A program made the translations under genes and the position numbers. Below are positions 4,786-20,447 of a DNA stretch of 27,225 bases, piece after piece. Numbering within the stretch: position 1 is the first letter of the stretch; each line of letters opens with the position of its first letter. Source of the DNA: a virus (lineage: Duplodnaviria; Heunggongvirae; Uroviricota; Caudoviricetes); IMG/VR virus record IMGVR_UViG_2541047770_000002; one strand, given 5' to 3'. Under the pieces are notes generated by a model that worked only from the letters and a program-made list of their open reading frames with translations, was not told where the DNA came from and did not search any database.

Positions 4786-5029
4786 GGGTGTCCTCCGTTT
4801 TCACTTCGCTGTCACTGCTGCTTCTGCGCTTTGGTGACTGCACAGCCGGTGTGCCGGCGGGTTTAGTCTCTTCAGGTACCGGCGTCAGATGTTTCAGCGC
4901 CACCAGTACCTTCACGTAGTCATGCTCCTCCGGCAGGGAAACCGTCTTCCCCGGCCAGAGCAGGATTTCGGTTCCGTCCGACAGCGTGACGCCGCTGGCC
5001 GGGCCGGAATAGCGGTATTCTTTCATCAC
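4775..5029 (-). CDS. Small hypothetical virion-module protein
   Basis: 84 aa ORF bridging gp37-like gene and sheath gene on the operon strand; overlaps sheath start by 11 nt. Confidence 0.45.
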   Translation of the reverse strand: MMKEYRYSGPASGVTLSDGTEILLWPGKTVSLPEEHDYVKVLVALKHLTPVPEETKPAGTPAVQSPKRRSSSDSEVKTEDTHGS

Positions 5030-5490
5030 TCGCTTTCCTCATAGTTCACTTCGGTTAACAGCGGGCCGGACGGTAAATCGCTGTCTTCGATAAAGACGCT
5101 TTCAGTCGCGAAGTCGAGGGCGTACTGCCACAGCCCCCTGACTTCACCGATAAACACCTCGCGGGTCAGCCAGATACGGCGGCGGCAGCCGGGCGGGGTG
5201 TGGCCACCGAGAATGCGGCGGACAGCATCCAGGACATTAATCGCCCCTTTTTTACCGTTGAGCTGGCGGAAGACCACCGTGACGCAGAGCTGGATAGTCT
5301 GAGACTGGATCACCGCACCGGTATCATCCGGCCTGTCAAAGCGCGAACCGGCATAGCTCAACAGCAACGCGCCAACCGGATGGTTCAGGCGATATTCAGC
5401 CGGTTTCTCCGGGAAGTACTCCACCTGCAGTTGCGGCAGCTTCTCGCGTAACCGGGCCAGTACCGCATCAAGGACGGGCAGAACGTTCAT
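5026..5490 (-). CDS. Mu gp37-like virion protein
   Basis: 154 aa; ATGA overlap with upstream gene; conserved position between head-completion genes and sheath in Mu-like late operons. Confidence 0.5.
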   Translation of the reverse strand: MNVLPVLDAVLARLREKLPQLQVEYFPEKPAEYRLNHPVGALLLSYAGSRFDRPDDTGAVIQSQTIQLCVTVVFRQLNGKKGAINVLDAVRRILGGHTPPGCRRRIWLTREVFIGEVRGLWQYALDFATESVFIEDSDLPSGPLLTEVNYEESE

Positions 5491-5936
5491 CAGTATTTCT
5501 CCAGTAAACCGTCACGACCGCCGAAAGTGGCCGGGCGACTGCGTACACGAAACTCGCCAGGCTCAGGCACATCTTTCTGAGTGGACGGCAGCCCCAGCGT
5601 GAGCCTGTTATCACGTAACTCCCTGAGTTGCCGCAGCGCTTCTTTGTGGTCATCCTTTACCGTATCCGGGAGGTCACCTTCCGGGCGGCGGGCGTAGAGC
5701 CGGTAACGGACCAGCGTGATGGCAATGTCCCGCAGAACAGTCGGTATCTCTGCCAGTGGCAGGATATAGCGTCCGCGCAGATGGGCATCAATCAGCTCGT
5801 CGGCATAGCGGATACAGCTGTCCACCACACGGGTATTCACTGTTGCAGGCGAGTCGAAGTCCATCTCTTCACTGGTGAGCTCGATAAGCGTCCGCTCCGG
5901 CACCTGCGCAAGCAAATCCTCCAGGGTGCAGTACAT
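5490..5936 (-). CDS. Mu gp36-like head-tail joining protein
   Basis: Start taken at internal ATG 5936 (MYCTLEDLL...) directly after the stop of the upstream gene (TGAcATG); the longer track ORF to 6098 would overlap the upstream gene. Confidence 0.5.
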   Translation of the reverse strand: MYCTLEDLLAQVPERTLIELTSEEMDFDSPATVNTRVVDSCIRYADELIDAHLRGRYILPLAEIPTVLRDIAITLVRYRLYARRPEGDLPDTVKDDHKEALRQLRELRDNRLTLGLPSTQKDVPEPGEFRVRSRPATFGGRDGLLEKY

Positions 5937-5937
5937 G

Positions 5938-6276
5938 TCACACCCCGCGCAGGATACGAATGACGTCGCCTTCACCCCCGGCTTCATCAAGTGCAATACC
6001 ACAGGATTTACCGTCGCCGGACTGCGGCACGGCTCTGGCCTGAGCATCTGACTGAACAGCCACACCACGGCTGACAGCGGCCCCGGCCTCGACAGCAATA
6101 ATGCCCAGAACGCTCACCGGCGTGCTGTCGCCGGTAACAGCATCCACTTCGGCAACCCCGAGCGCTGCGGCACCGGCTTTACAGGGGGTATTATCTGCCC
6201 CGACAAAACGCTGCTGTGCCAGTGCTGCCCCTGCCGTTACGGTTGTGATCAGAATGACCTGCTGAGTGGTTCCCAT
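5938..6276 (-). CDS. Small Ala/Gly-rich head-associated protein
   Basis: 112 aa ORF immediately downstream of major capsid gene on same strand; low-complexity Ala/Gly/Val composition. Confidence 0.4.
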   Translation of the reverse strand: MGTTQQVILITTVTAGAALAQQRFVGADNTPCKAGAAALGVAEVDAVTGDSTPVSVLGIIAVEAGAAVSRGVAVQSDAQARAVPQSGDGKSCGIALDEAGGEGDVIRILRGV

Positions 6277-6285
6277 AACGCCTCC

Positions 6286-7239
6286 TTATTTACTGATACC
6301 GGTAATGAGATACCCGGCATCGCCACCAACCACGGCGACTTTGTAGATATCGGTATAACGGCAGTACTTCACCTTGCCACCGGCTCCGTCGTATTTGTCG
6401 GCAACAGGCATCCCCTTACGACGCAGGGTGTAGCCGAAGGACGGCTCGTTCTCGTCCGCGCTGTCCGCCCCCGGCTGCGGTTTGCCGACATAGTGCAGCA
6501 TCAGATTGTCTCCCCAGATATCCGCCGGCACGCTGTTCTTATCCATTGCCGCTTTCATGGACGGCAGGGAGACCGGGGCACCGATGACGATCTCTTCGAT
6601 CTGAAAGAGGTCCTGCAGGATTTCTGTGGTGATGCGCTTGCGTTCGTTGGCTCCGATGGCGGCCTGAATCGCCGGGTGGAACTTCAGCAGCGCCATCACG
6701 CCGGCCCCCATGGTCATCAGGTTAGGACGCAGCCCCGTGGCCGTACGGACCGCTTCCATACCGGCTTCAATCACCCCGATGGGGTCCCCCTTACCACCGG
6801 CCCAGCGATCACTGGCTGTCAGTTTTTTGACGTGCCCGGTACGGTAGACCTTTTCATCCTGAGCCAGACGGGCAGCGATAAGTTCACGGCGCAGGTTCAC
6901 GCCATTCGTGGCGCGACGGATGGCCTTGCTCTCTTCGTTAAACATGGACTCCGCCTGCTCGCGATAGTCCACCGGCGCAGCCAGATCGTGTTCACCCAGC
7001 ACCAGGTCCAGCGTGCCTGTTTTTTCACGGACCAGAACATTGCTGTCCGCCCCGACGGCACGCTCGGTGTCATATTCCACAAAGGCGGTTTTCCCGAAGG
7101 TCGGTACACGCACGCCTTCCTTGTCCGTCAGCACGACGGGGAAAATACGTTCGCCGATGAATGCGGCATTTTTATAGCCACGGGCGATACTGGTCAGTAC
7201 CGGATCAACGACACGTTTACCTTTTAAGTAATCAGACAT
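6286..7239 (-). CDS. Major capsid protein (Mu T-like)
   Basis: 317 aa; AAGGAGA before ATG at 7239; follows protease/scaffold gene as in Mu I-T order. Confidence 0.75.
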   Translation of the reverse strand: MSDYLKGKRVVDPVLTSIARGYKNAAFIGERIFPVVLTDKEGVRVPTFGKTAFVEYDTERAVGADSNVLVREKTGTLDLVLGEHDLAAPVDYREQAESMFNEESKAIRRATNGVNLRRELIAARLAQDEKVYRTGHVKKLTASDRWAGGKGDPIGVIEAGMEAVRTATGLRPNLMTMGAGVMALLKFHPAIQAAIGANERKRITTEILQDLFQIEEIVIGAPVSLPSMKAAMDKNSVPADIWGDNLMLHYVGKPQPGADSADENEPSFGYTLRRKGMPVADKYDGAGGKVKYCRYTDIYKVAVVGGDAGYLITGISK

Positions 7240-15971: not shown

Positions 15972-16700
15972 ATGACGCAGACACTGAATCCGGTCATCAC
16001 TGTCACCGTGTCCGGTCCTGTGGGCAGCGGTAAAAGTTACATATTGGCGCGGATAGAGGAAGTGGTGAAACAGGAATTCGGAAACAGCGTCATTGTCGAC
16101 GCCGCAGACGTGGACGGTGAGCGCCGTATGAGTGGGGATGATCTGAGCACATGGCAGAAACCACGGGCTGGCACAGTGATCAGGCTGGAGGAATACACGG
16201 GACAGGGCCTGTTGTCATACGGCGAGGAGCGTATCTGTCGGACGAATGAGCTGCTGGATGTTATATGCCCCACGGGCCGGCAACCCTGGATACTGCCCGA
16301 TGCACTGCATGCCACCATTGCGGCACTGATGACAGTTTACGATCAGGAGCTGCTCATGAAGGAGTTACGTAAACTCACTGGTCAGTCAACAGAATGTTGT
16401 TCGTCCCCGAAGTACGGCAAACAGGAACACATCCCGATTAACCAGCCTCCCCGGTTCTTCGACGAATACCTTCTGACACCGGAAAATAAAGCTGAGCATG
16501 AAGAGATCAAAGCGGCGTTGTTCCGGGAAATCAGGAAGATTGCTGAAATGCAGTTGGGGGGCGGGCTGGACAGAGTGATGGCGAGAGGAGAATGGGCATC
16601 GCTGTTTGAAAGAGTTTCCCCGGAATTACTTCCCCTCGCACTGGCTATCGGGATTATGCAGACAGCGGATAAACCTCACTTACGTTCATTAAACACGTAA
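15972..16700 (+). CDS. Hypothetical protein with Walker-A-like motif (GPVGSGKS)
   Basis: 242 aa; strong RBS AGAGGAG 8 nt before ATG; N-terminal VTVSGPVGSGKSYIL motif; no further assignable domain by eye. Confidence 0.5.
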   Translation: MTQTLNPVITVTVSGPVGSGKSYILARIEEVVKQEFGNSVIVDAADVDGERRMSGDDLSTWQKPRAGTVIRLEEYTGQGLLSYGEERICRTNELLDVICPTGRQPWILPDALHATIAALMTVYDQELLMKELRKLTGQSTECCSSPKYGKQEHIPINQPPRFFDEYLLTPENKAEHEEIKAALFREIRKIAEMQLGGGLDRVMARGEWASLFERVSPELLPLALAIGIMQTADKPHLRSLNT

Positions 16701-17080
16701 CGCATAATCCGGGATACGCATTCAGCGATGACTGCATTTTCACCGGTTTTTACTGCATCCAGAAGTGACTCTTTAAATGGTACGGGCCGGGGCTGCAGAA
16801 AGGTCGGCATGGCATTGAGCAGACAGAGCGTTTTTTCCGTGAGGACGACATCAGCCGCTCCCACAGCCAGCAACTGAGAGTAACGAATATAGCTGTTATC
16901 CCGAAGCCATATCAGCGTATCAATAAAACACCGGCACTTTTTCTGGTCGTGATCAACCTGGTCCGGGATATCGAAAAAACCAGAATAAATCAAAACCTGA
17001 GGTGCCGGATGCGTGTTCAGTAATCGGCAGAATATTTTGCCGGTGAGTACATAAAAATCATCATTTAAGGAGTGCATCAT
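16676..17080 (-). CDS. Hypothetical protein (134 aa)
   Basis: ORF on late-operon strand, convergent 25-nt overlap with 15972..16700 and start codon overlapping the divergent start of 17079..17294; weak RBS (GGGGA). Coding status uncertain. Confidence 0.35.
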   Translation of the reverse strand: MMHSLNDDFYVLTGKIFCRLLNTHPAPQVLIYSGFFDIPDQVDHDQKKCRCFIDTLIWLRDNSYIRYSQLLAVGAADVVLTEKTLCLLNAMPTFLQPRPVPFKESLLDAVKTGENAVIAECVSRIMRYVFNERK

Positions 17081-17294
17081 GAATCCCCGATTAACGTTAA
17101 CAGAACATCAGCGCCGTGCTGAAGCAGTGAACAATGTTCTGGAAGATATTATCCGGTTATACCGCGGAGAACTGAGTGTCTGTCGTGCCGCTTTTCATTT
17201 TCAGGGAATACAAAAGCAGTTTGATACTTCTGTTTTTGCAGAAGGTATTACTTATGCCCTGGACCGGATAAGGTCAGAAAATCGCCCCGGATAA
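17079..17294 (+). CDS. Hypothetical small protein (71 aa)
   Basis: Near-ideal RBS AAGGAG with 6-nt spacer before ATG 17079; upstream of dam on same strand. Confidence 0.4.
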   Translation: MNPRLTLTEHQRRAEAVNNVLEDIIRLYRGELSVCRAAFHFQGIQKQFDTSVFAEGITYALDRIRSENRPG

Positions 17295-17380: not shown

Positions 17381-17420
17381 ATCGCCCCACAGGAATGCGC
17401 TGTGAGCCGACCAAGGTTCA

Positions 17421-17466
17421 GTCAGTCTCGCGAGACCTGACCAGACTGCCATATTTTTTAATAATT
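17421..17466 (+). promoter_or_regulatory. Candidate dam promoter with overlapping palindromic operator
   Basis: Imperfect 21-bp palindrome GTCAG-TCTCGCGAGA-CCTGAC (17421..17441; central 10 bp perfectly palindromic) overlapping a -35-like TGACCA, 17-bp spacer, -10-like ATAATT, about 20 nt before the dam ATG. Confidence 0.3.
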
Positions 17467-17484
17467 GTAAAAGGCTTACAGATT

Positions 17485-18252
17485 ATGAAAATGCAGACAT
17501 TACCCATCGTGCCGTGGATTGGTGGCAAACGCCGCCTTGCAAAACACATTCTGCCGCTGTTTCCGGCGCATGAATGTTATGTGGAGCCGTTTTGTGGGGC
17601 AGCAGCGCTCTATTTTCTTAAGACACCCGGCAAGATCGAAGTCATCAATGATATCAACGGTGAACTGGTGAATCTGTACCGGGTGGTAAAGCATCACCTG
17701 GAAGAATTTGTCCGCCAGTTCAAATGGGCGCTGGTCAGCCGTCAGATCTACAAATGGCTGCAGATCACCCCGGAAGAAACACTGACGGATATCCAGCGTG
17801 CGGCACGGTTTTACTACCTTCAGAAGCAGGCGTTTGGCGGCAAGGTGGCAGAGCACAGCTTCGGTACCTCCACCACATCCCCGCCACGCTTCAACCTGCT
17901 GCGTATTGAAGAAGAACTGTCAGCGGCACACCTGCGGCTTTCCAGAACAGTCATAGAACACATGGACTGGCAACAGTGCATTGAGCGTTATGATCGTCCG
18001 CACACGCTGTTCTACTGCGACCCACCGTACCTGGGTACGGAAGGCTATGGTGTGGATTTTCCTGAAGGGAACTACTCGCGGCTGGCAGAGCTGGCCCGGT
18101 GCATCAGAGGAAAGATGATTATATCGGTCAACGATATCCCGGAAATGCGGCAGGTTTTTAACGGTCTGAACATTCACTGTGTGAAGGTCAACTACAGTCT
18201 TGCAGGAAAGGGAACACTACGGCGCGAACTTATTGTAAGTAATTTAGAGTAG
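17485..18252 (+). CDS. dam: DNA adenine (N6) methyltransferase, Dam family
   Basis: Translation aligns by eye with E. coli Dam motifs: PWIGGKRRL (vs KWAGGK), EPFCGAAALYF (vs EPFVGAGSVF), DINGELVNLY (vs DINSDLISLY), FYCDPPY catalytic motif. Start ATG 17485 (MKMQTLPIV...); track start 17395 is upstream in frame. Confidence 0.85.
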   Translation: MKMQTLPIVPWIGGKRRLAKHILPLFPAHECYVEPFCGAAALYFLKTPGKIEVINDINGELVNLYRVVKHHLEEFVRQFKWALVSRQIYKWLQITPEETLTDIQRAARFYYLQKQAFGGKVAEHSFGTSTTSPPRFNLLRIEEELSAAHLRLSRTVIEHMDWQQCIERYDRPHTLFYCDPPYLGTEGYGVDFPEGNYSRLAELARCIRGKMIISVNDIPEMRQVFNGLNIHCVKVNYSLAGKGTLRRELIVSNLE

Positions 18253-18277
18253 GCTCAGAAGGAGGTAAGTAGTCTTG

Positions 18278-18309
18278 CATAACAATGCACCTGATGGTGC
18301 ATTGTTATG
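18278..18309. terminator. Bidirectional terminator-type hairpin between convergent dam and membrane-protein gene
   Basis: 14-bp perfect inverted repeat CATAACAATGCACC / GGTGCATTGTTATG with 4-nt loop TGAT; 26 nt after dam stop and overlapping the stop of the minus-strand gene. Confidence 0.5.
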
Positions 18310-18742
18310 ATATCACTTTGATTATATTGAATAATCGCCTACCTGTTTGTAATAAACACAACATAGACATAACAACAAGCCCAATGAGAATAGCGGCTAC
18401 AATCTCTTGATGCTTACTTTGCAGCATCAACCCAATCAAACATGTCAACACCAACACTAGCAAAACTAAGCAAGTGTAGAATGCATCGGTCATCAGACGC
18501 TTGTAATGTCCGGTTTTTTGCATGTTTTTAAGTAACGGTTTATCAAGCAATGATGCAAGTAGTGCAATTGCTGTAATAATAAAACCTAACAACGTTGCAA
18601 AGACACTGGACAATGTAGTCATGAAGTTTGGGATTGCGGCTACTGGCATATGGGGCAACTTGAACCAGTAGAGAAAACCAATCCCACATCCAATCAATAA
18701 ACTAAGCAATAGGGCCGAGTTCATCTTCTCCAATATATGCAT
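18305..18742 (-). CDS. Small four-helix integral membrane protein, RexB-like in size, topology and position (homology unverified)
   Basis: ATG 18742 with GGGAGAG 5 nt upstream (alternatives 18766, 18724); about 145 aa with four hydrophobic helices; last gene of repressor-strand operon; AT-rich. From memory of lambda RexB (144 aa, 4 TM) there may be a shared TLSS-plus-hydrophobic motif, but this was not verified. Confidence 0.6.
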   Translation of the reverse strand: MHILEKMNSALLLSLLIGCGIGFLYWFKLPHMPVAAIPNFMTTLSSVFATLLGFIITAIALLASLLDKPLLKNMQKTGHYKRLMTDAFYTCLVLLVLVLTCLIGLMLQSKHQEIVAAILIGLVVMSMLCLLQTGRRLFNIIKVIS

Positions 18743-19595
18743 TGATACTCTCCCGGTTTTCAGCATACGCAGTATCGATTAGACGGTACATGGTTTCGGC
18801 TGGAGGGAAACGAGCGTCAGTAACTACCGATTGATAGGACGAAATACGCTCGGCAATCAAATCCACAGGATGGACAACACCATCAGCATCGAACACATCA
18901 ATTACAGCCTTTTTCGCCCCAAACTCGACTAACTCTTGCATAGCAAATTTTATATTCTGCTTAAGCCTACCATCACTATCGCCACGGCGAGTATTAATCC
19001 CCATTACAATTTGCATTGTATCGGCACCTGCATCACCAAGCAGTTGTAGTGTCTTTTGACTGAAATCAGTATCAGGGTAAAACTCAGGATTACGGGGGCG
19101 AGGAATCGTCAACTGGATTTTTTTCATTTTGACATCTCCTCTCATAAGCCTAGCGATTGCATCTTTTTCCAGCAAAGGTGCGGGCTTAACCTTTGAACCA
19201 AAGATAGTTGAAAGAAATGCACTAAAACGGCTTATACCACAAGCCATATGATTATAGTGCCAACCTATAACATTGATTCGAGGATAGAATACAAAGAAAT
19301 TGCGCTCAATGATCCCTTCATCCTTGGCAAGTGGAATAGGGGTAGACTGTTTCCCTGGTGCACCTTTATCCGGAATGTTCGAGTTGCGAAATTTTCTCAA
19401 CTCTCCACTAAAAGAACCATCCGCGCGTTTTTTCAACCCCCAAATTTCTCTAGTAAAACCCTCATGGTTTGAAGAGGAAGGGCTCTGTTTATCAATTACA
19501 GATTGAAAAGCATCTCCGAGATTTGCCAGCTGATCTGTGGCCTTAAACGATAGCTGATGAAACTCAATACGATAATTTCTCACATCACCACTCAT
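18702..19595 (-). CDS. Hypothetical 297-aa soluble protein in the rexA position (no recognisable family)
   Basis: ATG 19595 with AAGGA 8 nt upstream; no TM segments; AT-rich codon usage unlike phage backbone; 3' end overlaps start of the membrane-protein gene (operon). No similarity to lambda RexA apparent by eye. Confidence 0.6.
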   Translation of the reverse strand: MSGDVRNYRIEFHQLSFKATDQLANLGDAFQSVIDKQSPSSSNHEGFTREIWGLKKRADGSFSGELRKFRNSNIPDKGAPGKQSTPIPLAKDEGIIERNFFVFYPRINVIGWHYNHMACGISRFSAFLSTIFGSKVKPAPLLEKDAIARLMRGDVKMKKIQLTIPRPRNPEFYPDTDFSQKTLQLLGDAGADTMQIVMGINTRRGDSDGRLKQNIKFAMQELVEFGAKKAVIDVFDADGVVHPVDLIAERISSYQSVVTDARFPPAETMYRLIDTAYAENRESINAYIGEDELGPIA

Positions 19596-19717
19596 ACGAT
19601 TAATCCTTAACGCGGAAAGTTCAGATGGTTAGTGCAAACAGCACATCCTACTGTTTAAATCAGCGCATATAACGAAGAGGTTTGATAACCTTGTCAATTG
19701 TTCTCATTGGGAATAGA
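19596..19717 (-). promoter_or_regulatory. Intergenic region between repressor and 297-aa gene; candidate internal promoter
   Basis: Minus-strand consensus -35 TTGACA (plus 19692..19697) with imperfect -10 candidates 17-19 nt downstream; could allow expression independent of the repressor promoter. Confidence 0.25.
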
Positions 19718-20134
19718 TTAACCCACATTTTTTAACCGCTCAATCGTTGCGGATAATTCCTTCAGTTGTTTTTCCATCTCGATCACTCGCTGTTTTTCCG
19801 CAGCGCCTCGCAGAAGATCGTTACGAACCTCGGGGTCTAGCTGCTTTAAAAGCTCAAGCATAGTAAGGTCAGCTTGGCTAAACTGCACTTGCGTCGGAGT
19901 TACGTCTACTTCTTTTGATAAACCTTGTTTTCTACCTGTTAGCAACCAATCTAAAGAAACCCCCTTTTCTTCTGCGATGTTTATGCAAATTGCATAAGGC
20001 ACAGAATCACGCTTCCTCCAACTTGCAAGTGTCTGCCTATTGACGTTAAGCGCTCTTGCCAACTCACTATCATTCTCTGCTTGGAATAGTGACATTAACC
20101 GGGAAAGCACAGCGTTAACATCTTTGTTATTCAT
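19718..20134 (-). CDS. Prophage repressor, CI-type helix-turn-helix (no peptidase domain)
   Basis: 138 aa from ATG 20134 (track start 20149 is GTG); HTH segment LARALNVNRQTLASWRKRDSVPYAICINIAEEKGVSLDWLLTG typical of phage CI-type repressor N-terminal domains; divergent from the ner-A-B early operon. Confidence 0.7.
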   Translation of the reverse strand: MNNKDVNAVLSRLMSLFQAENDSELARALNVNRQTLASWRKRDSVPYAICINIAEEKGVSLDWLLTGRKQGLSKEVDVTPTQVQFSQADLTMLELLKQLDPEVRNDLLRGAAEKQRVIEMEKQLKELSATIERLKNVG

Positions 20135-20149
20135 TTTGCGTAATTCCAC

Positions 20150-20222: not shown

Positions 20223-20447
20223 ATGAATAAACAACAAGTTCGGGCACGACTAGTTGAACGAGGCAGTAGCTTGCGCCAGTTCGCGCTTAACGCAGGCTAT
20301 GAGCCACGAACAGTCACACAGGCAGTCAGTCGCTGGGCTGGTAAAAGTGAACTACCACGTGGTCGTTTGACTTATCGGATTTTGCGAGATCTATCGGTTG
20401 CAATAGGTAAAGAAGTTACCCCCGGTATCCTTAAGGAGGTGTCATGA
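20223..20447 (+). CDS. ner: Ner-like DNA-binding protein (early-operon regulator)
   Basis: 74 aa; segment LRQFALNAGYEPRTVTQAVSRWAGKSELP resembles Mu Ner (LSALSRQFGYAPTTLANALERHWPKGEQ, from memory); first gene of operon ending in transposase and B. Confidence 0.65.
   Translation: MNKQQVRARLVERGSSLRQFALNAGYEPRTVTQAVSRWAGKSELPRGRLTYRILRDLSVAIGKEVTPGILKEVS

What the first reader, a model, noticed from the sequence alone, without database searches (positions are those of the whole stretch)
18305..19717. Repressor-linked two-gene module in the lambda rexA-rexB position: candidate lysogen-expressed exclusion or abortive-infection system
Directly downstream of the CI-type repressor, on the same strand, lie a 297-aa soluble protein with no family I can recognise and a ~145-aa protein with four predicted TM helices. 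Their coding regions overlap (operon) and a strong hairpin closes the unit. This is the gene order, strand, size pattern and membrane topology of lambda cI-rexA-rexB, where a sensor plus a membrane channel kill the cell on superinfection. The large protein shows no visible similarity to lambda RexA, so if the analogy holds it would be a new sensor paired with a RexB-like effector. A possible internal TTGACA promoter lies in 19596..19717.
Basis: partly seen in the sequence, partly recalled or inferred. Interest (0 to 1): 0.8.

Follow-up and report, generated by a model that had tools for sequence, protein, structure and literature searches.

The report
Remote RexAB-like prophage exclusion gene pair
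Just after the repressor gene of a Mu-like E. coli prophage sit two overlapping genes, a distant structural relative of lambda RexA and a four-helix membrane protein, that most likely form a Rex-type system for aborting infection by other phages; the pair belongs to a widespread family that nobody has characterised.

Summary
On the minus strand a CI-type repressor (19718-20149) is followed by a 297-aa soluble protein (A, 18702-19595). A 145-aa four-TM protein (B, 18305-18742) overlaps A by 41 nt, and a 14-bp hairpin (-22.8 kcal/mol) closes the unit.

B has the size and the predicted N-in/C-in topology reported for RexB. Its conserved basic central loop recalls the conserved central loop of Sbash gp31. 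Sequence homology to RexB is only marginal.

All 34 A-family loci (28-100% identity) carry B immediately downstream. They sit in cargo slots of BcepMu-like, lambdoid, P2-like and Mu-like prophages, often directly after the repressor. Related E. coli prophages mostly lack the pair.

The proposed TTGACA promoter is not supported. Function is inferred, not shown. This is a new member of the RexAB kind, missed by the PADLOC, Pfam and NCBIfam models.

The parts
19718..20149 (-). Prophage repressor gene. 143 aa from GTG at 20149; RefSeq start at 20134 gives 138 aa. Transcribed divergently from the ner-like and transposase early operon.
   Evidence: Pfam Phage_CI_repr E 1.2e-17 and PHROG transcriptional repressors. 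RefSeq calls it a helix-turn-helix domain-containing protein.
19596..19717 (-). 122-nt spacer between the repressor gene and gene A. No terminator is predicted and it has no unusual structure. It contains a TTGACA at 19692-19697 with no acceptable -10 element.
   Evidence: Fold z = -0.22. No promoter or terminator is called on the minus strand. The hexamer is not conserved in a 94%-identical relative, and the region is unrelated in L006 and L008.
18702..19595 (-). Gene A, 297 aa, soluble. A remote RexA homologue of the DUF6731 / phrog_7651 family and the proposed sensor/activator.
18305..18742 (-). Gene B, 145 aa, with four TM helices. N-terminus, basic central loop and C-terminus are predicted cytoplasmic. 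Proposed RexB-like membrane effector. It overlaps gene A by 41 nt; an alternative upstream ATG lies at 18766.
   Evidence: Hydropathy and K+R counts. AF2 shows four long helices at pLDDT 59. phrog_8552 E 3.8e-7 and phrog_17119 E 7.7e-5; lambda RexB touches phrog_17119 weakly at E 0.034. Conserved GTLLGF...D..L..NM.KTGH motif. A B homologue is present downstream of A in all 34 loci.
18279..18308 (.). Perfect 14-bp hairpin with a 4-nt loop, overlapping B's stop codon. It sits between B and the convergent Dam methylase gene. Probably a bidirectional transcript end or stabiliser; it has no U-tract.
   Evidence: dG -22.8 kcal/mol, z -6.4, 0 of 200 shuffles as stable. Arm coordinates. Not called by the terminator scan.

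Best explanation
This is a RexAB-type two-component superinfection-exclusion or abortive-infection module, carried as optional cargo by a BcepMu-like transposable prophage of E. coli.

Shown here:
- A is a cytoplasmic protein with the RexA/RdgC-like fold.
- B is a small four-TM inner-membrane protein with a conserved, basic central loop predicted to be cytoplasmic.
- The two genes overlap, which suggests translational coupling and fixed stoichiometry.
- They are always inherited together.
- In the window they lie 122 nt downstream of the repressor gene on the same strand, with no predicted terminator between.

Inferred, by analogy with lambda RexAB, Sbash gp30/31 and P. putida RexABpp:
- The pair is co-transcribed with the repressor in lysogens.
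- A, probably a DNA-binding dimer, senses a protein or a DNA-protein intermediate made by a superinfecting phage.
- A then engages B's central loop.
- B opens or oligomerises into a channel. The membrane depolarises, ATP falls, and the infected cell stops growing before the invader can replicate.

For: Profile: DUF6731 against the RexA family gives E 2.4e-4 over 251 colinear columns. With 150 sequences it gives E 2.8e-4 and score 35.0, against a maximum of 20.4 in 30 block-shuffles and 17.9 reversed. The secondary-structure order (N-terminal beta-rich domain, inserted alpha/beta domain, C-terminal helices) fits the split globular plus dimerisation domain layout of RexA.

Partner: B has four TM helices. 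K+R counts are 1/1/5/1/3 across N-terminus, loop 1, central loop, loop 3 and C-terminus, which predicts N-in/C-in. That is the topology predicted for Sbash gp31, and RexB likewise has four predicted TM domains (PMC6426596). B's invariant residues cluster at the end of TM2 and in the central loop. In Sbash gp31 the invariant positions also cluster in the central loop, where R70A and D73A abolish defence.

Coupling: 34 of 34 loci, down to 28% A identity, have B downstream and overlapping.

Context: the pair lies directly after the repressor in the window clade. It also lies directly after S24 CI-type repressors with a divergent cro in L012, L035 and Pseudomonas phage AUS531phi. One or two genes intervene in L005, L006 and L008, as in RexABpp. 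Elsewhere it sits antisense between Q and the lysis genes of lambdoid prophages, next to portal/terminase in P2-like prophages, and within Mu-like head genes.

Accessory status: the prophage backbone is in 635 of 5426 E. coli genomes and the module in 23. Sister prophages have an empty slot or other cargo. GC is 42% against about 58% in the structural genes.

Against: - There are no functional data for this family.
- A does not hit the RexA HMMs of Pfam or PADLOC, nor the DUF6731 HMM itself, even at E 10.
- B against RexB is marginal: hhalign E 0.007, probability 5%, 41 columns. The score is 22.3 against a shuffle maximum of 17.5.
- B's model has low confidence (pLDDT 59), and lambda RexB is not among its top 50 BFVD matches.
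- No sequence link to Sbash gp30/31 was found.
- Four-TM bundles are common.
- Lysogenic expression is inferred only from orientation and the absence of a predicted terminator.
- The hairpin lacks a U-tract.
Confidence: 0.7

Rival explanations
1. Butters-type inverted logic. A, the RexA-like cytosolic protein, is itself the growth-arresting effector. B only tethers and silences it at the membrane until infection releases it.
For: Mycobacteriophage Butters gp30/gp31 is described as Rex-like with exactly this reversal (PMC12894663 discussion). The strict A-B coupling and overlapping genes suit a toxin/sequestrator pair as well as a sensor/channel pair.
Against: Three of the four other described Rex-like systems (RexABpp, CarolAnn gp44/gp43, Sbash gp30/gp31) resemble lambda in having the membrane protein as effector. 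B's most conserved part is a cytoplasmic loop plus TM2, like the functionally essential loop of Sbash gp31. Nothing in A resembles a known toxin domain.
Confidence: 0.1
2. A mainly acts on DNA. It could modulate the repressor switch, as lambda RexA does independently of RexB, or act as an RdgC-like recombination modulator of the transposable phage. On this view B is an accessory anchor and the pair is not primarily an anti-phage system.
For: Lambda RexA binds DNA non-specifically and biases the bistable switch toward lysis independently of RexB (PMC11077077 abstract). RdgC is the second-best fold match. A BFVD 'recombination-associated protein' matches at E 1.2e-3. The module is linked to the repressor in several lineages.
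Against: The module also occurs far from any repressor: beside Q, beside P2 portal genes and inside Mu-like head operons. It is missing from most sister prophages, so it cannot be integral to the switch. The membrane partner is invariably retained.
Confidence: 0.08
3. A different membrane-linked accessory function. Candidates are an injection-blocking superinfection-exclusion protein pair, a prophage-addiction (toxin-antitoxin-like) pair, or a lysis regulator.
For: The pair combines a small membrane protein with a cytoplasmic partner in prophage cargo slots. No biochemical evidence exists for channel activity.
Against: The RexA-like fold of A points specifically to Rex. The prophage already has its own holin, transglycosylase and lipoprotein lysis cassette. 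There are no PADLOC or Pfam toxin-antitoxin matches.
Confidence: 0.07

Closest known systems
Bacteriophage lambda RexA/RexB (Pfam PF15969/PF15968; PDB 8TWQ)
   Same: - Gene order: repressor, then A (279 vs 297 aa), then a four-TM B (144 vs 145 aa), all on the lysogenic strand.
- A's predicted fold is closest to RexA, with RdgC second, and the profile alignment is colinear.
- B has the same number of helices and the same predicted topology.
- Both are prophage accessory genes.
   Different: - There is no BLAST or HMM similarity; these are different Pfam families.
- A and B overlap by 41 nt here, whereas lambda-family rexA and rexB are separated by 12-33 nt.
- The carrier is a transposable BcepMu-like phage whose repressor lacks an S24 domain.
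- No PLIT-like internal promoter was detected.
- B's conserved motif (GTLLGF...KTGH) differs from RexB's (YGYM...), with only a faint in-register resemblance.
Pseudomonas putida prophage P1 RexABpp (PP_5643/PP_5644; Sci Rep 2026, PMC12894663)
   Same: - A four-TM partner with no detectable RexB homology.
- A position downstream of a CI-like repressor, there separated by two genes exactly as in relatives L005 and L006.
- An experimentally anti-phage system with RexB-dependent membrane damage.
   Different: - RexApp-His is 37.5 kDa, so the protein is roughly 30 residues longer than A.
- RexBpp is at least 181 aa, against 134-157 aa for the B family.
- I could not obtain the PP_5643 sequence, so whether it belongs to DUF6731 is undetermined.
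Mycobacteriophage Sbash gp30/gp31 and Gordonia phage CarolAnn gp44/gp43
   Same: - A two-gene Rex-like prophage defence with a soluble protein and a four-TM protein.
- Genes 30 and 31 overlap by 41 nt, like A and B.
- The conserved central cytoplasmic loop of the membrane protein is essential.
- A 165-aa Sbash protein is the fourth-best BFVD match of the B model (prob 0.95, TM 0.51). That length matches annotated gene 31 (498 nt), but the identity rests on length alone.
   Different: - Actinobacterial phages; gp30 is 372 aa.
- No sequence or profile similarity to A or B.
- The B model is low-confidence, so the structural match is weak evidence.
RdgC (recombination-associated protein, PDB 2OWL)
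   Different: RdgC is a chromosomal housekeeping gene with no membrane partner. A is prophage cargo strictly paired with B.

Membership tests
Lambda RexA family (Pfam PF15969 / PADLOC PDLC02339) | Significant match to the family HMM | tested here: not met
   No Pfam hit even at E 10 and no PADLOC hit at E 1. Lambda RexA itself scores 1e-97 and 9e-110 against the same libraries.
Lambda RexA family (fold level) | RexA fold: split globular beta-rich domain interrupted by an alpha/beta dimerisation domain, related to RdgC | tested here: met
   [not shown]
Lambda RexA family (biochemistry) | Stable dimer that binds DNA non-specifically | not testable with these tools
   Needs SEC-MALS and EMSA as in PMC11077077.
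Lambda RexB family (Pfam PF15968 / PADLOC PDLC02340) | Significant match to the family HMM | tested here: not met
   No RexB hit for B or three homologues at E 10, and none in PADLOC.
Lambda RexB family (architecture) | About 145 aa, four TM helices, both termini and the central loop cytoplasmic | tested here: met
   Four hydropathy peaks, K+R counts of 1/1/5/1/3, and four long AF2 helices. Compared with the four predicted TM domains of RexB and the predicted topology of Sbash gp31 in PMC6426596.
Lambda RexB family (homology) | Detectable common ancestry with RexB | tested here: inconclusive
   BLASTP E 0.47 in register. hhalign E 0.007, probability 5%, 41 columns over TM2 and the loop. Score 22.3 against a maximum of 17.5 in 30 shuffles. 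Both touch phrog_17119: B at 7.7e-5 and RexB at 0.034.
RexAB-type system (functional class) | Co-oriented A-then-B gene pair carried by a temperate phage and oriented with, or linked to, the repressor | tested here: met
   Seen in the window. All 34 loci show the paired order. Direct repressor linkage occurs in the window clade, L012, L035 and AUS531phi.
RexAB-type system (functional class) | Both genes required to exclude a superinfecting phage; membrane depolarisation on trigger | not testable with these tools
   Requires plaque and membrane-potential assays.
Pfam DUF6731 (PF20505) | Match to the PF20505 HMM above the gathering score (27 bits) | tested here: not met
   The window protein gives no hit at E 10.
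Pfam DUF6731 (PF20505) | Full-length homology to proteins that pass the PF20505 threshold | tested here: met
   P0007 scores 53.5 bits on PF20505 and is 47% identical (E 2.1e-80) to A over 97% of its length. AUS531phi protein scores 48.9 bits. NCBI names relatives 'DUF6731 family protein'.
PHROG phrog_7651 (A) and phrog_8552 (B), both 'unknown function' | HMM match | tested here: met
   E 1.5e-19 over 284 residues for A; E 3.8e-7 over 136 residues for B.
Kiwa (KwaA four-TM + KwaB DUF4868) and other PADLOC systems | HMM match of either protein to a known defence component | tested here: not met
   No PADLOC family at E up to 1 for A, B or the repressor. The gene order (soluble protein first) also differs from Kiwa; that order is recalled from memory.

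The most novel reading that the evidence does not exclude
DUF6731 plus its unnamed four-TM partner may be the largest and most mobile branch of the RexAB superfamily. The profile search found at least 1051 clusters at 50% identity. The pair sits in cargo slots of four unrelated temperate-phage architectures across Gammaproteobacteria, and current defence-finding HMMs do not detect it. If so, Rex-type abortive infection is a common prophage strategy rather than a lambda curiosity with five described examples. The invariant GTLLGF...D..L..NM.KTGH loop of B would then define the long-sought site where a RexA-like sensor gates the membrane effector.
Probability: 0.5. Interest if true: 0.6.

Novelty: new member of a known kind. 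Interest (0 to 1): 0.5.

Why it matters
RexAB was the first abortive-infection system recognised, about 70 years ago. Its trigger and gating mechanism are still unresolved, and a 2026 paper counts only five Rex-like systems described.

This work ties a whole domain-of-unknown-function family (DUF6731) and an unnamed membrane-protein family to RexA and RexB. That gives a functional hypothesis for more than a thousand protein clusters now labelled 'hypothetical' in E. coli, Salmonella, Serratia, Pectobacterium, Pseudomonas, Shewanella, Vibrio and other prophages.

It also gives comparative material. Invariant residues in A and in B's central loop can guide dissection of how a RexA-like sensor activates its membrane partner.

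Finally, it exposes a blind spot in PADLOC and Pfam-based defence annotation.

Tried and rejected
- Direct sequence routes to RexA and RexB gave nothing: BLASTP, phmmer or hmmsearch of A and the A1/A2 profiles against PDB sequences (only chance-level eIF2-alpha hits at E 0.12), Pfam, NCBIfam and PADLOC.
- Kiwa and other known two-gene systems with TM partners were rejected because PADLOC gave no hits.
- The internal TTGACA promoter was rejected.
- A terminator between the repressor and A was rejected.
- The search for related loci with the broad alignment A2 failed for lack of a conserved stretch. The narrower A1 worked.
- Testing whether P. putida RexApp (PP_5643) belongs to DUF6731 failed. 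The sequence is not in the paper or its supplement. Primer-derived 19-21-mers found nothing in viral contigs or the first metagenome scan. The second metagenome scan gave only four chance matches with ORFs of 6-17 codons. No fetched protein carries its N- or C-terminal peptides.
- Sbash gp30/31 compared with the A and B profiles showed no signal.
- The B structure model is too weak (pLDDT 59) for a firm fold assignment. Its BFVD ranks (the partner protein of the same uncultured phage first, a 165-aa Sbash protein fourth, lambda RexB absent from the top 50) are treated only as hints.
- Literature searches for DUF6731 and PF20505 returned nothing.
Full report
**What is in the window.**
The 27-kb window is 100% identical to a prophage found in 23 of 5426 complete E. 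coli genomes. In CP095086 the annotation shows a BcepMu-like transposable phage. A leftward late operon runs from holin, SLT and lipoprotein through Mu-type portal, head, sheath, tube and tape-measure genes. A rightward early operon carries an IclR-type HTH gene, DUF3102, an rve transposase, an ExeA/MuB-like ATPase, gam, gp16 and Mor.

The finding lies between these two operons, in a stretch whose GC falls to about 42% against about 58% in the structural genes.

On the minus strand lie:
- the repressor (19718-20149; Phage_CI_repr E 1.2e-17);
- a 122-nt spacer;
- gene A (18702-19595, 297 aa);
- gene B (18305-18742, 145 aa at the RefSeq start, which has a good GGGAGAG Shine-Dalgarno);
- a perfect 14-bp hairpin (18279-18308, -22.8 kcal/mol, z -6.4). 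The hairpin overlaps B's stop codon and faces the end of a convergent Dam methylase gene.

A and B overlap by 41 nt. RefSeq calls both 'hypothetical protein'. TTGACA at 19692-19697 has no usable -10 element and is not called by the sigma-70 scan. It is TCGACG in a 94%-identical relative, and the upstream region is unrelated where the module has other neighbours. The spacer has no terminator and no unusual structure, so read-through from the repressor promoter is the simplest expectation.

**Gene A is a remote RexA homologue.**
A has no hit in Pfam, NCBIfam or PADLOC, none among PDB sequences, and BLASTP against lambda RexA gives E 2.4. It does match phrog_7651, annotated 'unknown function' (E 1.5e-19).

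Its closest relatives are 40-81% identical and come from Serratia, Pectobacterium, Citrobacter, Scandinavium, Salmonella, E. coli and E. marmotae. They are annotated DUF6731 (PF20505). A profile search of 1.84 billion cluster representatives found 1051 proteins at E < 1e-3 and 126 at E < 1e-30, almost all 280-310 aa. Named members include Shewanella, Pseudoalteromonas and Vibrio.

Profile-profile comparison of DUF6731 with a RexA-family alignment gives a colinear, nearly full-length alignment: E 2.4e-4 over 251 columns. With 150 sequences it gives E 2.8e-4 and score 35.0 over 216 columns. Thirty block-shuffled RexA alignments reached at most 20.4 over at most 81 columns, and the reversed alignment 17.9.

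The HH probability is only 41-44%, so the case rests on two independent methods agreeing, not on either alone. My reading is that A is not a new sensor paired with a RexB-like effector. It is a RexA-superfamily protein too diverged for ordinary searches.

**Gene B looks like RexB but homology is not proven.**
B has four hydropathy peaks. Its K+R distribution is 1/1/5/1/3 across N-terminus, loop 1, central loop, loop 3 and C-terminus. That predicts cytoplasmic termini and a cytoplasmic basic central loop. This matches the topology predicted for Sbash gp31, and RexB likewise has four predicted TM domains (PMC6426596). AF2 gives four long helices plus a short loop helix, but at pLDDT 59.

Across 17 partners (26-90% identity) the invariant residues cluster at the end of TM2 and in the central loop (GTLLGF.IT...D..L..NM.KTGH), plus a C-terminal G.R. 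This parallels Sbash gp31, whose invariant positions lie in the central loop and where R70A and D73A abolish defence.

Against RexB the signal is faint but consistent:
- BLASTP E 0.47 with the helices in register;
- hhalign E 0.007, probability 5%, 41 columns over TM2 and the loop;
- score 22.3 against a maximum of 17.5 in 30 shuffles;
- both proteins touch phrog_17119 (B 7.7e-5; RexB 0.034).

In BFVD the best match of the B model is a protein of the uncultured phage 'Siphoviridae sp. ctylc9'. The same virus supplies the best match of the A model (E 4.8e-15). Rank 4 is a 165-aa Sbash protein whose length equals annotated gene 31. Lambda RexB is not in the top 50. I rate homology to RexB as inconclusive and analogy as well supported.

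**The pair is one unit.**
I collected loci from NCBI and Logan assemblies, GTDB genomes, IMG/VR and GenBank phages. In every one of 34 loci scanned with A- and B-family HMMs, a B homologue starts inside or within 7 nt of the end of an A homologue (28-100% identity). Pseudomonas phage AUS531phi shows the same arrangement.

The two proteins diverge in parallel. A identities of 97, 76-80, about 45, 35 and 32% go with B identities of about 97, 70-74, 33-35, 28 and 26%. Lambda-family rexA and rexB are instead separated by 12-33 nt. Sbash genes 30 and 31 overlap by 41 nt, like A and B.

**Where the pair lives.**
1. Directly after the repressor on the same strand. This holds in the window clade of BcepMu-like prophages (gap 93-123 nt). 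It also holds in two lineages with S24 CI-type repressors and a divergent cro (L012 Alloalcanivorax, gap 83 nt; L035, gap 107 nt), and in Pseudomonas phage AUS531phi (CI, 45-nt gap, A, B).
2. After the repressor but with one or two other genes, or the methylase gene, between (L005, L006/L022/L024, L008). P. putida RexABpp has the same layout.
3. In many lambdoid prophages, between antiterminator Q and the lysis genes and antisense to them.
4. Next to the portal and terminase genes of P2-like prophages (L036, L037). From memory, this is the tin/old cargo position.
5. Inside the head-gene block of high-GC Mu-like phages (L038, L039).

The backbone of the window's prophage occurs in 635 of 5426 E. 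coli genomes but only 23 carry the module. The common variant has the methylase and repressor genes back to back (L046). Another variant carries unrelated cargo in the slot (L047).

The module is therefore mobile, dispensable cargo. It is typically oriented for expression in the lysogen, which excludes a virion, replication or lysis role.

**Mechanism.**
Shown here: the RexA-like fold of A, the topology and conserved loop of B, overlapping genes, strict co-inheritance, and prophage cargo placement with recurrent repressor linkage.

Inferred from lambda RexAB, Sbash gp30/31, CarolAnn gp44/43 and P. putida RexABpp (PMC11077077, PMC6426596, PMC12894663): the pair is co-transcribed with the repressor. 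A, probably a DNA-binding dimer, detects a product of a superinfecting phage. A then acts on B's central loop, and B depolarises or permeabilises the membrane so that the infection aborts.

Confidence that this is a RexAB-type module is about 0.8. Confidence that it works by that mechanism is about 0.55. I give 0.7 overall.

The rivals are:
- Butters-type reversed roles, where A is the effector and B the sequestrator;
- a mainly DNA- or switch-directed role for A;
- some other membrane-linked accessory function.

**Comparison and novelty.**
PADLOC contains RexA and RexB models that recognise the lambda proteins (9e-110 and 8.6e-61). Those models find neither the window's proteins nor the validated Sbash pair, so a negative defence-finder result carries little weight here.

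No paper in the searchable library mentions DUF6731 or PF20505. The 2026 P. putida paper counts five Rex-like systems described so far. That system is the nearest precedent: it has similarly remote similarity to RexA, a four-TM partner without RexB homology, and the same repressor-plus-two-genes layout. I could not obtain the PP_5643 sequence to test whether it belongs to DUF6731.

I classify the finding as a new member of a known kind: a previously unrecognised and apparently large sequence family of RexAB-type modules. It is moderately interesting (0.5). The kind is not surprising, but the result is useful because it assigns a testable function to a widespread DUF and offers comparative leverage on the unsolved RexA-to-RexB gating step.

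Noticed in passing
window 1-27225; L001 (NZ_CP095086.1 3480233-3522333): The window is a BcepMu-like transposable prophage. The early operon (HTH, DUF3102, rve transposase, ExeA-like ATPase, gam, gp16, Mor) and the late operon diverge from a central immunity/cargo region. In CP095086 the early end abuts nagE, and gam is annotated as a pseudogene with an internal stop.
   Followed up: partly
L046 (NZ_CP098195.1) and L047 (NZ_CP118407.1), slot equivalent to window 18253-19717: The slot downstream of the repressor is variable cargo. The backbone is in 635 of 5426 E. coli genomes and the A-B pair in 23. The common variant has nothing between the methylase and repressor genes. Another variant carries an unrelated pair (328 aa with one hydrophobic segment, plus 203 aa) and a DUF2441 gene.
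   Followed up: partly
window 15972-17294: Three further unannotated accessory genes lie between the lysis cassette and the Dam methylase gene. One is a 242-aa P-loop protein (GPVGSGKS; phrog_3787; weak AAA_30/KAP hits and weak PADLOC Csx3-AAA/mad8 hits). The second is an overlapping antisense 134-aa protein (phrog_2266). The third is a 71-aa protein. They could be another cargo module.
   Followed up: partly
window 17395-18252 (+): An orphan D12-class Dam methyltransferase gene (PADLOC MTase_II 1.4e-112) converges on gene B and shares the 18279-18308 hairpin. In Serratia relative L008 it lies between the repressor and the A-B pair instead, so it is not part of the module.
   Followed up: partly
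L003, L004, L009-L011, L026-L034, L040: In lambdoid prophages the A-B pair (about 45% identity) sits between antiterminator Q and the lysis genes, antisense to late transcription. This implies its own promoter and possible transcriptional interference with pR'-type late transcripts.
   Followed up: no
L045 (Sbash KP027201) 4934-6509; L014-L018; L002: Sbash defence genes 30 and 31 overlap by 41 nt, the same overlap as A and B in the window. Lambda-family rexA and rexB are always separated by 12-33 nt.
   Followed up: yes
L039 1927-3189: The Mu-F-like head morphogenesis protein of a high-GC Mu-like phage carries a C-terminal PBECR3 (Barnase/EndoU/ColicinE5-D/RelE-like) nuclease domain (E 5.6e-7).
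   Followed up: no
A2 profile positions 210-287 (A residues ~205-285): The C-terminal third of the DUF6731 profile gives weak hits to eIF2-alpha chains in the PDB (E 0.12-0.35). This is probably chance.
   Followed up: no
window 20223-20447 (+): A 74-aa ORF divergent from the repressor has a weak HTH_35 hit (E 0.007), which suggests a Ner/Cro-like protein. CP095086 does not annotate it, while sister prophages annotate a 62-aa 'DNA-binding protein' at the same place.
   Followed up: no
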